Origin: Escherichia phage FP43
Sequence record: MN648445
Length of the DNA stretch: 64,000 bases
Direction: 5' to 3' (one strand)
Shown in pieces: positions 17,434 to 23,283 of the stretch. The translations under genes were made by a program, and so were the position numbers. Position 1 is the stretch's first letter, and each line of letters begins with the position of its first letter. A model generated the notes under the pieces. The model was not told where the DNA came from. It was given only the letters and a program-made list of their open reading frames with translations, and made no database searches.

Positions 17434-18027
17434 ATGAACACATTGAAGAAACTTGTTGAATTCATCCGCACTAAACTGGGTACTGCTATGGCTAAAAATC
17501 TGACTGTAGAAGAACAGTATAACGCAGCTGCAGATAAGTTGATTACCCAAATCAAAGAACTAAAAACGGCTTCTGTTAAATCTATTAACGAAGAAAAACG
17601 TATTCGCGAACTTGTTAATGAAAAGAACAAGCAAGCCGCTTCTAAGGAACGTGAAATTCGTAAGCTCCTGGCTGAAGGACAAGATGTTACCATGCATGCT
17701 AAGCTTGGACTTCTGTATCGTCGAACTGCCGAACAACTTAATACAAAAGCTGACGGGTATGCCGCTATGCGAATTGAAATTGCTCGTAAGGTGGTTGAAC
17801 TTGACGATGCTCGTCAGAACCTGGCAATCAAACTCGAATACATTCGTGAAACTCGAGCAGCCAATGCCCTTGGTATCTCTACCGCTGACGATGTAATTGA
17901 AATCGCTGCACTGACTAAGGTTGATATCGAAGACACTCTGACTCGTGTTGAAACGTTCAATGGCACTCCAGCTGGTGTCGAAACCACTTCTGCTGATGTA
18001 CAAGAATATATTAACTCTTTGAAATAA
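17434..18027 (+). CDS. Coiled-coil protein, function unknown
   Basis: 197-aa ORF, Ala/Glu/Lys-rich heptad-like sequence. Confidence 0.45.
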
Positions 18028-18036
18028 AATAATACG

Positions 18037-18059
18037 GAGGACTCCGGTCCTCCTTTTGG
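18037..18059 (+). terminator. Rho-independent terminator
   Basis: GGAGGAC-TCCG-GTCCTCC stem followed by TTTTGG. Confidence 0.7.
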
Positions 18060-18076
18060 ATAATAAAGGAGTTAAC

Positions 18077-18679
18077 ATGCGAAACCAAAATAATGATATT
18101 GACTCAATGTTCGAAGAGTTCCGAGATAAGGTAAATCCACCTACGTCTTTAGTTGATTCATTACGATATGTTGCAACCGGACGTAAATGGTACTGGTCGT
18201 CTTCTTATGAGACCACCGAGAAAACGGCTAGCCATAGCAGAAAATCTTTATTAGCCCCAGGTATTATGATTCATGATATCGGAGCTATTGCTAAACTAGT
18301 TGCAGACCATGATATTAGATTCACTGATTTCGTTGCTCCTACGTGGTCTGTTTGTTGTTTAAACACTGAATGGGAATATATCAGCGAACGCTCTGAAGAT
18401 TATTATGGTTTTAGAGATAAGCTTCTGAGGTCTAATATGTTTTATATCGATACAGAAGTTCTAGTCGATAATAAAAAATATTACTTTACGTTAATCATCG
18501 ATTCTGAAACTATGTATGAAGGCAAGCCTTTGCTTAAAAGAGTTGATGCTTTAAGTGCTATTGATGCGCTTTATGAAACTATGGTTGTTAGTCCTAATTT
18601 CACTAACAATTTAATCCTTGAGCAATTTATTATGGAATGTAGAGAATATGTCAAAGCCAACCCTATACATGCCAAGTAA
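18077..18679 (+). CDS. Hypothetical protein with EQFIMECR motif near C-terminus
   Basis: About 200 aa from ATG 18077 with AAAGGAG RBS. Confidence 0.45.
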   Translation: MRNQNNDIDSMFEEFRDKVNPPTSLVDSLRYVATGRKWYWSSSYETTEKTASHSRKSLLAPGIMIHDIGAIAKLVADHDIRFTDFVAPTWSVCCLNTEWEYISERSEDYYGFRDKLLRSNMFYIDTEVLVDNKKYYFTLIIDSETMYEGKPLLKRVDALSAIDALYETMVVSPNFTNNLILEQFIMECREYVKANPIHAK

Positions 18680-19043
18680 GCCCTGGGCGTATGAATACAA
18701 GCGTAAATTAATCCCAAATGAAGTACTATTTGGCCCTATTTTAGCTTTAGCATTTTTAATCTTTATGATTATAGGAGCTGTTTTAGATTCTAGTGAAGTT
18801 ATATCGTCTGATGCAGCATTTTCATTAATGTTCGTCGCACCACTTATTGTACCGTTTTTATTAATGCCTATTAATTGGGTGGGATATTGGCACCAAGGCC
18901 GTCATCACAGAGCCCGATTAAGAGAATGGAAAGTTCAGTGCGCAAAAGCCCAAGCTCAGTATGATGAAGCTGTTAAAAAGTATGAATATGAAGAAGCTAT
19001 GGAATTCGTTAAGGAAATAAGATGCAAAAGCCTCAACTCTTAA
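18648..19043 (+). CDS. Membrane protein (start uncertain)
   Basis: Two hydrophobic helices (ILALAFLIFMIIGAVL, LMFVAPLIVPFLLMPI). Confidence 0.4.
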   Translation: MSKPTLYMPSKPWAYEYKRKLIPNEVLFGPILALAFLIFMIIGAVLDSSEVISSDAAFSLMFVAPLIVPFLLMPINWVGYWHQGRHHRARLREWKVQCAKAQAQYDEAVKKYEYEEAMEFVKEIRCKSLNS

Positions 19044-19381
19044 CCGTATGGCCTTCTCTTGGTGAGAACATTCTAATTTTTATTATGAGTATTGGCATGG
19101 GATTTGCCTTTGGATTAGTTGGATTTCTTATTGACGGCGTTGTGTTAGGATTTATAGGGAACACTGGTGGATTCACAGACCAATGGCAGGACTTACGGTA
19201 TACCCAAGCCTTTGCATCCATCGCATCATTTTGTACTGTAGTCTATTTTTACTACGATTTTATAAACCACAACAAGAAAAATAAAAAGGTTTACGCTTCT
19301 CAAATGATTAGTTATAATGAACTCCTAGCTAGACGTGAAAATGAAACAATCGAAAACTTTATTAAGGAATGTAGAAAATGA
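19022..19381 (+). CDS. Membrane protein, C-terminal NFIKECR motif
   Basis: 119 aa, hydrophobic N-terminal half, C-terminus ...NETIENFIKECRK. Confidence 0.45.
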   Translation: MQKPQLLTVWPSLGENILIFIMSIGMGFAFGLVGFLIDGVVLGFIGNTGGFTDQWQDLRYTQAFASIASFCTVVYFYYDFINHNKKNKKVYASQMISYNELLARRENETIENFIKECRK

Positions 19382-19683
19382 GTAAGATTATTGAAATTAA
19401 AGTACCAGAGTTTAATGATGCCAAATCCGCTTCAGATGCAATTTATAAACTTCTGAATCAAGCTGAACGTATCGAAGAAGAAGCAACAAAGATCGCAGAC
19501 CAATATGCCGTATCATTTTCTGTAGGTGATTATGGTAGCGGTCGTACTTATTATCCTAAGGGTGAAATCGTATCCCAGTGGATGAAAGATGAAATTGAAA
19601 ATAATGGCGGCGATGTTAAGCGTGAAGGTAATGGATACGTTATTACTGAAGGTGCTTGGGTTTCGTCTTCTGCGTTGTGCTAA
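19378..19683 (+). CDS. Small protein, WVSSS-Cys C-terminal family, copy 1
   Basis: 101 aa ending ...GAWVSSSALC. Confidence 0.5.
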   Translation: MSKIIEIKVPEFNDAKSASDAIYKLLNQAERIEEEATKIADQYAVSFSVGDYGSGRTYYPKGEIVSQWMKDEIENNGGDVKREGNGYVITEGAWVSSSALC

Positions 19684-19692
19684 GGAATCATT

Positions 19693-19965
19693 ATGTCTAA
19701 AGAACAAACCGAACTGGCTGAAGCTGTAGCAAAAATCTATGCCGCTATTGAGGCTGCCAAAGAAATTGCTGATAAACAAAACACAACATTCAACTTGTAC
19801 CCAGCTTATGGTATGGGTGGAACCTATCATTCACCCGGACATCTTAAAGCCGATCTTGAACGTTGTACAAAAAACGGTTATGCCGAATGGGCTGACGTTT
19901 ACCAATACGACTACAACCTGAGCCTCGAAACTGGTGGTTGGGTCGCATCTTCTCACACTTGCTAA
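19693..19965 (+). CDS. Small protein, WVSSS-Cys C-terminal family, copy 2
   Basis: 90 aa ending ...GGWVASSHTC. Confidence 0.5.
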   Translation: MSKEQTELAEAVAKIYAAIEAAKEIADKQNTTFNLYPAYGMGGTYHSPGHLKADLERCTKNGYAEWADVYQYDYNLSLETGGWVASSHTC

Positions 19966-19974
19966 GGAAACAAT

Positions 19975-20172
19975 ATGTCTCGTGAATTAGATTGTGCTGT
20001 ACGTACGGCAGTAGCTGCTCTGGAAAACCTGTTCCAAATTGCAACAGAAGAACGCGAAGAAGTTACATTATGGATTGAAGATAACGCAGGTCTGAATCTC
20101 CAGGACGCGATCTCATTATCCCACAATAGTATCACTGTTCAAGGCTGGGTATCATCTAGTTATTCTTGCTAA
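19975..20172 (+). CDS. Small protein, WVSSS-Cys C-terminal family, copy 3
   Basis: 65 aa ending ...QGWVSSSYSC. Confidence 0.5.
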   Translation: MSRELDCAVRTAVAALENLFQIATEEREEVTLWIEDNAGLNLQDAISLSHNSITVQGWVSSSYSC

Positions 20173-20176
20173 AACA

Positions 20177-20214
20177 GTTTACAACAAGATAGGGCTATGT
20201 TATAGTAGTCCTAT
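20177..20214 (+). promoter_or_regulatory. Early promoter cassette (GATAGG.CTA / TAGTCCTATC family)
   Basis: GTTTAC 20177..20182, TATAGT 20201..20206. Confidence 0.6.
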
Positions 20215-20234
20215 CAAAACAAATGGAGTCCACA

Positions 20235-20474
20235 ATGATTTATTACGAAAGTATCGGAACCAAAGTGGTTGGTAAAACCATTACTCGTGAAAAGTTTGCA
20301 AAGATATTCGATATGCGTTATAAAAAATCTGAACACAAAGGCATCCGATTCGAAGATGCGCACTGTACAATTTGCCCTTATAATGAAGACATAAACGGTA
20401 CAATCGTTCCATTGGTAGAGGCTTCACATGATGACCTCTGGGATGAATATAATATCGCATGTCGTGAAATTTAA
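20235..20474 (+). CDS. Hypothetical protein
   Basis: 79-aa ORF from ATG 20235 with GGAG RBS. Confidence 0.4.
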   Translation: MIYYESIGTKVVGKTITREKFAKIFDMRYKKSEHKGIRFEDAHCTICPYNEDINGTIVPLVEASHDDLWDEYNIACREI

Positions 20475-20502
20475 GTTAATGAATTAATCCGAGGAAAATA
20501 TT

Positions 20503-21459
20503 ATGATGTTAGTTATTGGTTCTCGTGCACTTCACTATCACGGTCTTATTGATTCTAGCGCTATTAAAAATAGTGATTGGGACTTTATTGCGGACCAAGG
20601 TTCTTGGAATGCATTCAAAAATCAAATGATGGGTGTATATGTTCACCAAGATAACCCTGATGTCCAAGTTTTCAAATGCTTCCATAATGGACGCGAAACT
20701 CATTTTGAAGCATACATCGTTCCGGCTATCACTAACGTTCGCGAACTAGTCGGTGAACTCACTCCTGAAGATTTCACGTCTTCTTATGACCTTTTAAAAT
20801 ACGCCAAGAAAAATTTGACTAAAGACCGTTTGAACGGGTTTTACTGGGCAACTCCTGAGATATGTCTTGCAATTAAGATGTCTCATCGTTTCAAGAAAAA
20901 TAATCCATTCTTTTTAAAGACTATGAACCATATTCAGTATCTTCGTGGTAAAGGTGTTACACTGAACGATGAACTTACTGAAATTATGCTGAAACGCCAG
21001 AAAGAAACCTTGAATTATGCTCACCCAGTTCTTGACACTTCTAAAAGTGCGTTCTTTAAAGATGACATCTATACATATGACCATGATACTATTCATGAAG
21101 CCATTGCACTAACAGACCGTCCAGCGTATACATTTTATATGAAAGATGGTTCTGAAGTCATGACCTCACGCGAGAAGTTCGAATCATTACCAGAAATGGT
21201 CAAATTGGCCGGCGTATACGAAGAATCATGTGTACTAGCGTTAGAACGTTCTCAGATTCCTAATAACTTTGAAATCCATCCACGTGATAGTTTTATGATG
21301 GCCCTTGAAAAGGTCTGTACATCAATCACATCAGGATGGTTCCGTGAGTTCGCTTGGGAAAATTATAGCAAAGTAGTAAGTATGTACCAAAGCTTAGGAC
21401 ACGACGATTACGTCAAGCGTTTCAAACAAAACTTTCATATGGTAAAACCTTTCAAATAA
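20503..21459 (+). CDS. Hypothetical protein, possible nucleotidyltransferase fold
   Basis: 318 aa; N-terminal VIGSRALHYHGLIDSSAIKNSDWDF resembles the GS...D-x-D minimal NTase motif (weak). Confidence 0.45.
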   Translation: MMLVIGSRALHYHGLIDSSAIKNSDWDFIADQGSWNAFKNQMMGVYVHQDNPDVQVFKCFHNGRETHFEAYIVPAITNVRELVGELTPEDFTSSYDLLKYAKKNLTKDRLNGFYWATPEICLAIKMSHRFKKNNPFFLKTMNHIQYLRGKGVTLNDELTEIMLKRQKETLNYAHPVLDTSKSAFFKDDIYTYDHDTIHEAIALTDRPAYTFYMKDGSEVMTSREKFESLPEMVKLAGVYEESCVLALERSQIPNNFEIHPRDSFMMALEKVCTSITSGWFREFAWENYSKVVSMYQSLGHDDYVKRFKQNFHMVKPFK

Positions 21460-21471
21460 TTTCACAAAACA

Positions 21472-21510
21472 GTTTACAAGGTCTGTAGTTGTTGATACTA
21501 TAGACCTATC
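21472..21510 (+). promoter_or_regulatory. Early-type promoter cassette
   Basis: GTTTAC 21472..21477, TACTATAGACCTATC downstream. Confidence 0.5.
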
Positions 21511-21539
21511 AAAACAAATGAGTGAATGGAGATATAAAA

Positions 21540-21740
21540 ATGACTACTTTGAATAAACGTTTCGGTAAAGCTAAACCTGGTTGTGCAGCAGAACGTCGTT
21601 ATGTTTTCGCTCAGTTAGAAGATGTAGAGTATCAGATTAATCAAGTTCACATTACTGGTATCGAGCCTATGTGTGGCCTTGAAGCTCTTCGTGAAGTTCG
21701 TGATGGGTATCGTCGTGACATCGAAGAAATGTCAAAATAA
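21540..21740 (+). CDS. Small hypothetical protein
   Basis: 66-aa ORF. Confidence 0.35.
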   Translation: MTTLNKRFGKAKPGCAAERRYVFAQLEDVEYQINQVHITGIEPMCGLEALREVRDGYRRDIEEMSK

Positions 21741-21741
21741 G

Positions 21742-21779
21742 TGTACAAACTGATAGGACTATGTTATAGTAGTCCTATT
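21742..21779 (+). promoter_or_regulatory. Early promoter cassette (TGTACA -35 variant, GATAGGACTA/TAGTCCTAT arms)
   Basis: TGTACA 21742..21747, TATAGT 21765..21770. Confidence 0.55.
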
Positions 21780-21798
21780 AAAACATGAGGAGAATATT

Positions 21799-22104
21799 AT
21801 GAAATTAGGCGAAACCAACCGAATTGGTCTTTTAACAATATTTGTATCACTTTTTTACGCAGCTCTTTCTGTTGCAGTATTACAAAAGGCTTACAGTATG
21901 GATGGTGTTCCTGGTTTTGTATTCTTATCGCCGTTTTTGCTATTCGTTGGAGCATTGTTATTATATGCCACGACTAGTTTCGACCATAACGTCTGGGTCA
22001 ATTATAAATGTAAATTGTCTGAAGAAGAACACGCAGAAGCTCGTAAAAAAGCTATTGAATCTACCAATCTAGAAAATTTCATTAAAGAATGTCGAGGAAA
22101 ATAA
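21799..22104 (+). CDS. Membrane protein, C-terminal NFIKECR motif
   Basis: 101 aa, two hydrophobic helices, ends ...STNLENFIKECRGK. Confidence 0.5.
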   Translation: MKLGETNRIGLLTIFVSLFYAALSVAVLQKAYSMDGVPGFVFLSPFLLFVGALLLYATTSFDHNVWVNYKCKLSEEEHAEARKKAIESTNLENFIKECRGK

Positions 22105-22105
22105 T

Positions 22106-22792
22106 ATGAATAGTTCTAAAGTGTTTAATAGTCAAGCTCGTGCAGTAGGTGGTTTTGCTCATGCGATTAAAAATGACCAGATTAAAAACGAGCCTATGTT
22201 CTTTAATTGCGATTTGAATTTTGCTTTTGATAACGGCGGTCCAATTACTCGTAGCTTTATCCAAAATCTCCCTGACGATTGGAAAGACTCAGATGTAGTA
22301 TTTGATTCACGAGTCCATATGCTGATGCCTGGTTGGTACCCTGCTATCCCAGGTTATCACCATGATGATGTACCACGCCCGGATATTCCGGTTGGTCAAC
22401 ATTTTATTACTGCAGGACAACCTGACTATGACAATCCTCGCTATTTGTCTGAACATATTCTTGGTCTTGTTAACGCTGATGTGTGTCCTACTCATTTTGC
22501 AACAGGAACTGCAGAGTTCAGTCAGATTCCTGATGGCGAACTTATCTATCGCCAGTGGCACAAAGAAGTCCTCGAAAAAATTGAAAAAGGTGAACTAGAG
22601 AAATGGGAAGCTCCAGATCGTACTCTTCTTCAGTTTGATTGGCAAACATGGCACACTGGTTCTCGTGCAATTAGTAATGGATGGCGTTGGTTCGGACGTG
22701 TATCTCGTAATACAGACCGAGTTAAAAAGATTACCAATGAAATTCGTGTCAATGCTCAAGTTTATCTGGAATTCCCTATGGAAGGCTGGTAA
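22106..22792 (+). CDS. Hypothetical protein (very tentative 2OG-Fe(II)-oxygenase-like motifs)
   Basis: 228 aa; HHDD ... H ... R-x-S pattern only. Confidence 0.4.
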   Translation: MNSSKVFNSQARAVGGFAHAIKNDQIKNEPMFFNCDLNFAFDNGGPITRSFIQNLPDDWKDSDVVFDSRVHMLMPGWYPAIPGYHHDDVPRPDIPVGQHFITAGQPDYDNPRYLSEHILGLVNADVCPTHFATGTAEFSQIPDGELIYRQWHKEVLEKIEKGELEKWEAPDRTLLQFDWQTWHTGSRAISNGWRWFGRVSRNTDRVKKITNEIRVNAQVYLEFPMEGW

Positions 22793-23283
22793 TGATTAAC
22801 AAAACATATTGGTCTAATATAGACGATGGCAACGAAGGTATTTCGTACTATTCAGTGGATTGGACAGGATGTCCATCCTACTTAGTGAAACGTATTTGCC
22901 AAGAATTTAAAATCGACCAGCCAGCAGGTATTATCGTGAACAGATACATTAATGGATATCAACCTATCGATGAAGTAATACGAACAACTCAAGCTGAGCT
23001 TGAAAAGTTTTTCAATAAGTGCCAATGGATAACAGGATGGATTATATTTGTACCGTCGGTATGGTTTTTCAGTACTAAGGTGAGTTCTTTCGGTTTTGTT
23101 GATATTATTGCTATCTTATTAGCATCTAGTATCGTAAGTGTTGTTGGTGGCATCATTGGCGGCGGTACCGCCGCCATCATTATTAATCTTATTAAAAGTA
23201 GTTTACAAGAACATAAAGACAAGATAAAAGCCAAGAATAATGAAGTTGAACGTTTTATTACCGAATGCAGGAATTTGAGATGA
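22792..23283 (+). CDS. Membrane protein, C-terminal RFITECR motif
   Basis: 163 aa, Gly-rich hydrophobic segment, ends ...NNEVERFITECRNLR. Confidence 0.5.
   Translation: MINKTYWSNIDDGNEGISYYSVDWTGCPSYLVKRICQEFKIDQPAGIIVNRYINGYQPIDEVIRTTQAELEKFFNKCQWITGWIIFVPSVWFFSTKVSSFGFVDIIAILLASSIVSVVGGIIGGGTAAIIINLIKSSLQEHKDKIKAKNNEVERFITECRNLR

What the first reader, a model, noticed from the sequence alone, without database searches (positions are those of the whole stretch)
19378..20172. Tandem triplication of small proteins sharing a C-terminal G-x-W-V-S-S-S-x-x-C tail
Three consecutive genes (101, 90 and 65 aa) end in GAWVSSSALC, GGWVASSHTC and QGWVSSSYSC while their N-terminal parts have diverged. 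This pattern suggests a conserved C-terminal targeting, modification or interaction tag on diversifying effector heads. I do not recognise the family.
Basis: seen in the sequence. Interest (0 to 1): 0.6.

Follow-up and report, generated by a model that had tools for sequence, protein, structure and literature searches.

The report
Phage small proteins with cysteine tail
Three neighbouring small phage genes belong to a large, unstudied family of acidic proteins that nearly all end in the same Trp-x-Ser-Ser-Ser-x-x-Cys tail and are almost always encoded just upstream of one nucleotide-transferring enzyme, which points to an undescribed two-part phage system.

Summary
ORFs 19378-19683, 19693-19965 and 19975-20172 (+ strand) end in GAWVSSSALC, GGWVASSHTC and QGWVSSSYSC, and nothing else in the 64-kb window does. 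The window is an RB69-like (Mosigvirus) phage; these are RB69 ORF139c/138c, 137c and 136c, all 'hypothetical'.

They are not a recent triplication. They are three old subfamilies of a phage-only superfamily, with at least 230 clusters at 50% identity. About 94-98% of homologues retrieved by profile end in W-x-S-S-S-x(0-3)-C. Substitutions within the genus are mostly synonymous. The proteins are acidic and confidently folded, and they have no relative in Pfam or the PDB.

The key new fact is gene linkage. In 72 of 80 loci fetched through the downstream 318-aa protein (20503-21459, DUF7277+DUF7275), 1-5 such ORFs lie upstream on the same strand and none on the other strand. That protein models as a MenT/ANT-like nucleotidyltransferase. 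T4 lacks both at the syntenic site.

My best reading is inferred, not shown: the small proteins are partners of this enzyme, and W-x-S-S-x-C is its contact or modification site. The function is unknown and I found no literature on it.

The parts
19378..19683 (+). W1, 101 aa, subfamily A (helix, G-D-Y-G-x-G-R-T-Y-Y-P, tail GAWVSSSALC); orthologue of RB69 ORF139c/138c
   Evidence: PHROG 899, E 1.3e-22; AF2 pLDDT 92; pN/pS about 0
19693..19965 (+). W2, 90 aa, subfamily B (helix, P-A-Y-G-M-G-G-T-Y, tail GGWVASSHTC); orthologue of RB69 ORF137c; the most widespread subfamily
   Evidence: PHROG 899, E 5e-19; subfamily B in 45 of 80 loci
19975..20172 (+). W3, 65 aa, subfamily C (MSRELDCAVRTA..., tail QGWVSSSYSC); orthologue of RB69 ORF136c
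   Evidence: (PHROG 4882, E 7.7e-37)
19657..19680 (+). tail of W1: W-V-S-S-S-A-L-C, followed directly by the stop codon
19939..19962 (+). tail of W2: W-V-A-S-S-H-T-C, followed directly by the stop codon
20146..20169 (+). tail of W3: W-V-S-S-S-Y-S-C, followed directly by the stop codon
20503..21459 (+). 318-aa predicted nucleotidyltransferase (Pfam DUF7277 + DUF7275, PHROG 2141; RB69 ORF134c), the constant downstream neighbour of the tail proteins
20223..20474 (+). intervening small ORF (RB69 ORF135c-like, PHROG 3723); not a detectable family member; relation to the module unknown
19290..19318 (+). sigma-70/T4-early-like promoter match (TTTACG-17-TATAAT) just upstream of W1; consensus match only
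20178..20206 (+). promoter-like match (TTTACA-17-TATAGT, TG-extended) between W3 and the next ORF; consensus match only. No terminator-like site on the + strand between 19378 and 21459

Best explanation
W1, W2 and W3 are three anciently diverged members of a phage-specific superfamily of small (about 50-150 aa), strongly acidic, folded proteins. The family signature is G-x-W-x-S-S-S-x(0-3)-C at or within one residue of the C-terminus. They form a conserved two-component module with the Pol-beta-type nucleotidyltransferase (NTase) encoded just downstream (20503-21459), probably as early genes. I propose, as inference, that the small proteins are protein partners of this enzyme, and that the W-x-S-S-x-C unit is the element the enzyme binds and most likely modifies on a serine hydroxyl (O-nucleotidylylation or a related phospho-group transfer). 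Several paralogous 'heads' would then be served by one enzyme. Shown: the family, its tail, purifying selection, the fold prediction, the NTase fold and intact catalytic motifs, and the gene linkage. Inferred: physical or enzymatic coupling, the modified residue, and any role in host takeover or counter-defence.
For: Linkage: all 10 loci fetched through W1 homologues carry 2-7 tail ORFs followed within about 1 kb by the ~300-aa DUF7277/DUF7275 gene. These include Aeromonas phages where the pair sits next to nrdD, and a non-T4-like Klebsiella phage. In the opposite direction, 72 of 80 viral loci fetched through the NTase carry 1-5 tail ORFs, and 2 more have variant tails. All 205 are on the NTase strand, all but one lie upstream of the NTase, and none is on the opposite strand. 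Pooled over all loci held, 270 such ORFs (201 distinct sequences) are all on that strand. The 5 hits in 185,579 species genomes are MAG contigs that also carry tail ORFs. T4 lacks both at the syntenic e.3-e.2 junction. No other neighbour is conserved across the loci. Enzyme: the AF2 model has pLDDT 90.6. Its closest folds are MenT1, ANT(2''), TglT, MenT4 and LnuA, enzymes that add nucleotides to hydroxyl groups of tRNA 3' ends or antibiotics. hG-S, D-x-D and E are invariant in 36 diverse homologues. Tail chemistry: the invariant positions are W, S, S and C, plus a preceding G; three of these are nucleophiles. The unit occurs two or three times inside some members, for example ...DWLSSSCYGEG...VWMSSSC and P0233. 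This behaves like a repeated recognition site rather than a single structural plug. There are several paralogues per single enzyme gene.
Against: There is no experimental or structural evidence of contact or modification; the link is gene neighbourhood only. AF2 packs the tail into the fold (strand plus terminal turn, pLDDT about 87), so the serines may be structural N-caps and poorly accessible. Six to eight of the 80 NTase loci, including one ~140-150 kb phage clade, show no tail ORF within 4 kb, so the enzyme can exist without them nearby. In the window, an unrelated ORF and a promoter-like site lie between W3 and the NTase. The structural neighbours of the NTase act on RNA or small molecules, not proteins. 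In some jumbo phages the NTase lies near RNA-repair genes (Rnl1, PNKP), which hints at an RNA substrate.
Confidence: 0.45

Rival explanations
1. Toxin-antitoxin-like regulation. The NTase is a MenT/AbiEii-like enzyme that is toxic or must be kept in check, and the upstream small acidic proteins are its inhibitors or regulators. The tail would plug or occlude the active site without being a substrate.
For: The closest folds are the MenT1, TglT and MenT4 toxins. In those systems a small antitoxin gene lies upstream of the toxin gene; MenT1 is inhibited by antitoxin binding (PMC10435456, abstract). Here the small acidic genes (median pI 4.4) also lie upstream on the same strand.
Against: One inhibitor would be enough, yet genomes keep up to 5-7 divergent paralogues. 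The small proteins have no DNA-binding or known antitoxin domain. The NTase does not match the AbiEii Pfam model. The module is confined to virulent phage genomes rather than bacterial chromosomes or plasmids. Some NTase loci lack the small genes.
Confidence: 0.2
2. Independent small host-takeover or anti-defence proteins. The tail is only the structural signature of a tiny fold (Trp in the core, Ser N-caps, Cys packing on Trp). Adjacency to the NTase would reflect shared early expression and co-inheritance in a hyperplastic region, not joint function.
For: AF2 predicts the tail as an integral strand and turn with high confidence. W68, W94, G92 and A40 look like core positions. The proteins are small, acidic and probably early, like many phage host-interference proteins. 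The region between e.3 and e.2 is variable between T4 and RB69-like phages.
Against: The adjacency survives in quite different neighbourhoods and phage lineages: next to nrdD in Aeromonas phages, next to DnaB in Acinetobacter phages, and in jumbo and phi92-like phages. No other neighbour is conserved. Structure alone does not easily explain a near-invariant terminal Cys and Ser-Ser in more than 200 distinct sequences with both Ser codon families. It also does not explain internal repeats of the unit in acidic loops.
Confidence: 0.2
3. RiPP-like maturation. The NTase activates a tail serine, which is eliminated or displaced by the C-terminal cysteine thiol. This would give a lanthionine or AviCys-like thioether ring (S-x-x-C), that is, several 'precursors' served by one enzyme.
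For: The architecture is several paralogous small genes followed by one enzyme gene. S-x-x-C-COOH is present in 75% of tails. Established knowledge: lanthipeptide dehydratases activate Ser by phosphorylation or glutamylation before elimination, and AviCys rings form between a Ser-derived Dha and a C-terminal Cys.
Against: No LanB/LanC/LanM/LanKC/LanD-type domain occurs among the neighbours. The Ser-to-Cys spacing varies from 0 to 3 residues. The region is predicted to be folded, not a free core peptide. The conserved part is the putative core while the 'leader' varies, the reverse of RiPPs. There is no export or protease gene.
Confidence: 0.06
4. Artefact of DNA-level processes. The shared tail would be maintained by gene conversion between tandem copies, or by an overlapping RNA or ribosome-binding signal, not by protein function.
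For: W1 and W2 end with the same TGC TAA GGA A, where the stop codon plus GGA forms the next gene's Shine-Dalgarno sequence.
Against: The codons of the W-x-S-S-S part differ between copies. W3 lacks the downstream SD context yet keeps the tail. The motif is kept in very distant phages with all six Ser codons. The RNA around the W1 tail folds no better than shuffles (z = +1.1).
Confidence: 0.02

Closest known systems
MenAT / AbiE nucleotidyltransferase toxin-antitoxin systems (DUF1814 NTase with an upstream small partner)
   Different: There is no sequence-level match to the AbiEii Pfam model. The partners have no wHTH or known antitoxin fold. There are 1-7 paralogous partners with an invariant C-terminal W-x-S-S-S-x-x-C. 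The module occurs in virulent phages, not cellular genomes. Toxicity and a tRNA substrate are untested.
NTases that nucleotidylylate a small partner protein (MntA-HepT of MNT-HEPN systems; GlnD-PII). This comparison comes from my general knowledge and was not tested here.
   Same: They are a conceptual precedent for a Pol-beta-fold NTase modifying a hydroxyl side chain of a small protein encoded next to it or working with it.
   Different: Those enzymes modify Tyr, not Ser. The partners are HEPN or PII folds. No HEPN or PII signature is found here. There is no homology beyond the NTase superfamily.
Lanthipeptide / AviCys RiPP clusters
   Same: Several small paralogous genes sit next to one enzyme gene. 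The C-terminus is Ser-rich and ends in Cys, and S-x-x-C is common.
   Different: There are no Lan-type enzymes. The 'core' is conserved and the N-terminal part varies. The protein is folded and acidic. The Ser-Cys spacing is variable.
PHROG 899, PHROG 4882 (small proteins) and PHROG 2141 / Pfam DUF7277 + DUF7275 (enzyme)
   Same: The window proteins are clear members by HMM (E 1e-22, 5e-19, 8e-37, 2e-150; Pfam 3e-79 and 1e-27).
   Different: These are catalogue entries of unknown function. Neither the tail motif nor the linkage between the two families appears in any paper I could find.
Small acidic phage early proteins that mimic nucleic acid (Ocr, Arn, ArdA-like)
   Same: They are small, strongly acidic and probably early-expressed.

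Membership tests
W-x-S-S-S-x-x-C tail superfamily (defined here; PHROG 899 and 4882) | HMM match to the PHROG profiles | tested here: met
   W1 E 1.3e-22 and W2 E 5e-19 to PHROG 899; W3 E 7.7e-37 to PHROG 4882
W-x-S-S-S-x-x-C tail superfamily (defined here; PHROG 899 and 4882) | C-terminal G-x-W-x-[SAP]-S-S-x(0-3)-C followed by the stop codon | tested here: met
   All three window ORFs; 90/92 and 135/143 of profile-retrieved homologues
W-x-S-S-S-x-x-C tail superfamily (defined here; PHROG 899 and 4882) | Encoded upstream of, and on the same strand as, a DUF7277/DUF7275 nucleotidyltransferase gene | tested here: met
   In the window the NTase starts 331 nt after W3; the same holds in 10/10 and 72-74/80 related loci
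W-x-S-S-S-x-x-C tail superfamily (defined here; PHROG 899 and 4882) | Head homology independent of the tail | tested here: inconclusive
   A versus B heads: hhalign 95%, E 3.5e-8. The C head versus A or B is not significant: 2.5% and 0.8%
MenT / AbiEii (DUF1814) NTase toxins (for the neighbour 20503-21459) | Pol-beta NTase fold with a MenT-like helical domain | tested here: met
MenT / AbiEii (DUF1814) NTase toxins (for the neighbour 20503-21459) | Catalytic hG[GS] ... D-x-D ... E motifs | tested here: met
   G6, S7, D25, D27 and E69 are invariant in 36 homologues
MenT / AbiEii (DUF1814) NTase toxins (for the neighbour 20503-21459) | Sequence membership (Pfam AbiEii model or a PADLOC defence model) | tested here: not met
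   Only DUF7275/DUF7277 at E <= 0.1 in Pfam; nothing relevant in NCBIfam or PADLOC; no PDB sequence hit
MenT / AbiEii (DUF1814) NTase toxins (for the neighbour 20503-21459) | Toxicity through tRNA 3'-end nucleotidylation, neutralised by the upstream gene product | not testable with these tools
   Needs expression and tRNA-seq experiments
Known antitoxins of NTase toxins (AbiEi, MenA) | wHTH/AbiEi fold or similarity to MenA | tested here: not met
Lanthipeptide / RiPP precursor | A Lan-type dehydratase or cyclase (LanB/C/M/KC/L) or LanD encoded in the cluster | tested here: not met
   Pfam scans of 11 neighbouring ORFs found none
Lanthipeptide / RiPP precursor | An unstructured core peptide with Ser/Thr and Cys behind a conserved leader | tested here: not met
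   Ser and Cys are present, but the tail is predicted to be part of a folded domain, and it is the tail, not the N-terminus, that is conserved
MNT-HEPN systems | A HEPN partner with an R-x(4-6)-H motif | tested here: not met
   No HEPN Pfam hit in the small proteins or their neighbours
Acidic DNA-mimic anti-restriction proteins | Fold or sequence similarity to Ocr/ArdA/Arn | tested here: not met
   Acidic (pI 4.2-5.0), but no structural match in the PDB or BFVD other than the family itself

The most novel reading that the evidence does not exclude
W-x-S-S-x(0-3)-C is a sequon for a phage-specific post-translational modification system. A MenT-like nucleotidyltransferase would transfer a nucleotide or phospho-group onto a tail serine of an expandable family of small acidic effector proteins. 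The terminal cysteine might then use that activated serine, for example to close a thioether ring or to form a covalent link to a target. This would be a new protein-modification pathway found in more than 2,000 phage protein clusters, including T4-like, phi92-like and jumbo phages.
Probability: 0.2. Interest if true: 0.85.

Novelty: categorically new. Interest (0 to 1): 0.62.

Why it matters
If the linkage is functional, this is a widespread, phage-exclusive two-component system that nobody has described. The NTase family has 2,242 clusters at 90% identity, and the tail family has at least 230 clusters at 50% identity. The system would consist of one highly conserved enzyme and a diversifying set of small acidic proteins, all carrying the same reactive Trp/Ser/Cys motif.

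It offers a concrete, cheap entry point into early-gene 'dark matter' of therapeutic phages that infect E. coli, Klebsiella, Acinetobacter, Aeromonas and Pseudomonas: three small proteins, one enzyme and three point mutants. It could reveal new protein chemistry, such as serine nucleotidylylation by a MenT-like enzyme, or a new way for phages to control host RNA or defence systems.

Even if the tail turns out to be purely structural, the family defines a new small fold, and the NTase becomes a candidate tRNA- or RNA-end-modifying enzyme of phages.

Tried and rejected
1. DNA repeat, gene conversion or an RNA element as the cause of the tail. Rejected: the codons differ between copies, all Ser codon families are used, and the RNA fold z-score is +1.1.
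2. A fourth hidden member in the window, either the 83-aa ORF 20223-20474 or another ORF. Family HMMs find only the three.
3. T4 e.2 as the T4 counterpart of W1 (same position, 102 aa). It is unrelated; T4 e.2 corresponds to window 22792-23283, and T4 has neither the tail proteins nor the NTase in this region.
5. Known domains in the longer heads (125-172 aa members). None found in Pfam.
7. A reverse test through subfamily E in IMG/VR gave only 10 loci, all already known.
9. Literature searches returned nothing relevant for DUF7275/DUF7277, the RB69 ORF names, and phage NTase / C-terminal cysteine terms.
10. Other conserved module genes. The 228-aa ORF 22106-22792 co-occurs in only 23 of 80 loci, and the rest occur less often.

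Full report
**What is there.** The window is a Mosigvirus (RB69-like T-even phage); bases 18000-22000 are 99.8% identical to phages ATK47 and ATK48. On the + strand, three back-to-back ORFs end in GAWVSSSALC, GGWVASSHTC and QGWVSSSYSC, each followed directly by a stop codon:
- 19378-19683 (101 aa, here W1)
- 19693-19965 (90 aa, W2)
- 19975-20172 (65 aa, W3)

A six-frame scan of all 64 kb finds this tail nowhere else, and family HMMs find no further member. In annotated relatives the three are 'hypothetical protein'. In RB69 they are ORF139c/138c (split by a frameshift in that record), ORF137c and ORF136c, located between e.3 and nudE/e.

**Are they real genes?** Each has a TAAGGA-type ribosome-binding site 6-8 nt before its ATG. 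For W2 and W3 it is built from the stop codon of the preceding gene. Promoter-like T4-early-type matches lie at 19290-19318 and 20178-20206. No terminator-like site occurs on the + strand before the end of the 318-aa gene. Within Mosigvirus, substitutions are almost all synonymous: against L013 the counts are W1 8 synonymous / 0 non-synonymous, W2 10/4 and W3 14/1. The tail codons differ between the three copies, and the RNA around the W1 tail has no unusual structure (z = +1.1). The tail is therefore selected at the protein level.

**The family.**
- W1 and W2 match PHROG 899 and W3 matches PHROG 4882. There is no hit in Pfam, NCBIfam or PADLOC.
- tblastn finds W1-like genes in 394 phage records and W3-like genes in 251, all unannotated. 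Hosts include Escherichia, Shigella, Klebsiella, Enterobacter, Citrobacter, Serratia, Yersinia, Edwardsiella and Aeromonas.
- Reading the ORFs in ten such loci showed 2-7 tandem small ORFs per phage with the same ending. They fall into recognisable subfamilies:
  - A: G-D-Y-G-x-G-R-T-Y-Y-P (W1)
  - B: P-A-Y-G-M-G-G-T-Y (W2)
  - C: MSRELDCA... (W3)
  - D: E-E-Y-I-P ... F-W-Y-S-S-S-M
  - E: D-W-L-S-S-S-C-Y-G-E-G ... V-W-x-S-S-C, which carries the unit twice
- The order A-B-...-C recurs in Dhakavirus, Klebsiella T4-likes and phage PEi20. The window therefore holds three of at least five old paralogues, not a fresh triplication.
- An exhaustive profile search of 1.84 billion representative proteins gave 230 clusters at E <= 1e-3. 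Of the 143 new ones listed, 135 end exactly in the motif, and most exceptions carry one extra residue after the Cys. Of 92 homologues from the indexed search, 90 end in it; the two exceptions are truncated.
- The motif is W-[VLIMFQ]-[SAP]-S-S-x-x-C in 75% of cases, W-x-[SP]-S-[SN]-C in 21%, and one residue longer in 4%. A Gly usually sits two positions before the Trp, and both TCN and AGY serine codons are used.
- The proteins are acidic: median pI 4.4 and net charge -9; W1-W3 have pI 4.2-5.0.

**The constant neighbour.** In every locus the tail ORFs are followed by a gene of about 300 aa, which in the window is 20503-21459 (318 aa; Pfam DUF7277 + DUF7275; PHROG 2141).
- This family is large, with 2,242 clusters at 90% identity, and is highly conserved: 45% identity between very different phages, with about 60 invariant positions including G6-S7, D25-x-D27 and E69.
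- It has no sequence-level match to known families or to PDB chains.
- I tested the linkage in the other direction. Of 80 IMG/VR loci fetched through this enzyme, 72 carry 1-5 tail ORFs and 2 more have variant tails. All 205 ORFs are on the enzyme's strand, all but one lie upstream of it, and none is on the opposite strand. Pooled over all loci held, 270 such ORFs (201 distinct sequences) are all on that strand.
- The loci include T4-like, phi92-like (~150 kb) and jumbo (>340 kb) phages. The enzyme also occurs in Acinetobacter, Pseudomonas and Stenotrophomonas phages.
- A scan of one genome from each of 185,579 bacterial and archaeal species found only 5 hits. All are MAG contigs, and all also carry tail ORFs.
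- T4 has neither component. There e.3 is followed directly by e.2 and nudE, so the RB69-like phages carry the small genes and the enzyme together as an insertion relative to T4.
- No other neighbouring gene is conserved with the pair.

**Interpretation.** What is shown is a phage-only, two-component gene module: one nucleotidyltransferase plus a variable number of small acidic proteins that share an almost invariant Trp/Ser/Ser/Cys ending. How it works is inference. I favour a direct partnership in which the W-x-S-S-x-C unit is the element the enzyme recognises and probably modifies on a serine hydroxyl (confidence about 0.45 for the partnership as stated, about 0.2 for serine modification specifically). 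My reasons:
- The linkage holds regardless of genomic neighbourhood.
- The enzyme's catalytic motifs are intact.
- Its structural relatives are O-nucleotidyl transferases.
- The invariant tail residues are nucleophiles.
- The unit can occur two or three times within one protein, like a sequon.
- Several paralogues share one enzyme gene.

Against this reading:
- There are no binding or chemistry data.
- The tail is predicted to be packed into the fold.
- A few enzyme loci lack tail ORFs nearby.
- In the window another ORF and a promoter-like site separate W3 from the enzyme.
- The closest structural relatives act on tRNA or antibiotics. In some jumbo phages the enzyme lies near Rnl1, PNKP and Metallophos genes, which hints at an RNA substrate.

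The rivals are a toxin-antitoxin-like inhibitor role (0.2), independent effectors with a purely structural tail (0.2), RiPP-like thioether formation (0.06) and a DNA-level artefact (0.02).

**Comparison with known systems.**
- The enzyme works like, and folds like, MenT/AbiEii/ANT nucleotidyltransferases, but it fails the sequence-membership test. Its partners are unlike AbiEi or MenA antitoxins.
- MNT-HEPN and GlnD-PII are precedents for NTases that modify a small partner protein (my general knowledge, not tested here), but no HEPN or PII feature is present.
- Lanthipeptide clusters share the 'many small genes, one enzyme' layout and a Ser/Cys C-terminus, but no Lan-type enzyme is present and the conservation logic is reversed.
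- The families are already catalogued as PHROG 899, 4882 and 2141 and as Pfam DUF7277/DUF7275, all of unknown function.
- Four literature searches found nothing on the motif, the ORFs or the DUFs.

**Verdict.** The 'tag on diversifying heads' and 'triplication' wording needs correcting. The module appears to be undescribed and unlike any characterised system, and its function remains to be determined experimentally.

Noticed in passing
window 18056-18679, 19022-19381, 21799-22104, 22792-23283 (+ strand): Four other proteins of the region (e.5-like, e.3-like membrane protein, a 101-aa membrane protein, e.2-like) share a second C-terminal motif, [EQ]-x-F-I-x-E-C-R (ENFIKECRK*, ENFIKECRGK*, ERFITECRNLR*, EQFIMECREYV...). 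In each case the motif's codons (…AAG GAA TGT AGA…) lie just upstream of, or overlap, the start of the next gene. It may therefore be a translational-coupling or RBS element rather than, or as well as, a protein motif.
   Followed up: partly
L003 (RB69, AY303349) 2501-2807: The RB69 reference record has the W1 orthologue split by a 1-nt frameshift into ORF139c and ORF138c. All other Mosigvirus records examined have the intact 101-aa gene, so this is either a sequencing error or a lab-strain pseudogene.
   Followed up: partly
window 19378-22792 versus T4 (L109 3653-4320): Relative to T4, where e.3 is followed directly by e.2, the RB69-like phage carries an insertion of about 3.4 kb. It contains W1-W3, ORF135c, the NTase, a 72-aa ORF, a 101-aa membrane protein and a 228-aa protein.
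   Followed up: yes
window 22106-22792 (+): A 228-aa protein with no Pfam hit, rich in His/Asp/Trp, is found near the NTase in 23 of 80 related loci. It may be an accessory part of the module in T4-like phages.
   Followed up: partly
L110 1-2367 and 7195-11134; also L045, L048, L052, L071: In some jumbo phages the DUF7277/DUF7275 NTase lies within 5 kb of T4-type RNA ligase 1, PNKP, Metallophos phosphoesterases and a DNA ligase. This is a weak hint that the enzyme may act on nucleic-acid ends.
   Followed up: partly
P0233, P0235, subfamily E members (alignment A5): Some family members carry two or three internal copies of the unit inside acidic loops, for example QWVSSDCEGEDGWSDSGCSDGDYDGGWSASSQSC. 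The W-x-S-S-x-C element therefore behaves as a repeatable module and does not need a free C-terminus in every copy.
   Followed up: partly
window 20503-21459, residues 272-279 of the NTase: The invariant NTase segment C-T-S-I-T-S-G-W, read backwards, resembles the tail W-x-S-S-S-x-x-C. This is probably coincidence; it was not testable without a model of the complex.
   Followed up: no
L093 (Acinetobacter phage phi1_092060) 2662-3615; NC_049492 (phage Kimel): Two depositors labelled homologues of the NTase 'DefenseFinder protein' and 'putative nucleotidyltransferase'. A Klebsiella phage record calls one 'prohead assembly scaffold protein', which looks like a mis-annotation.
   Followed up: no
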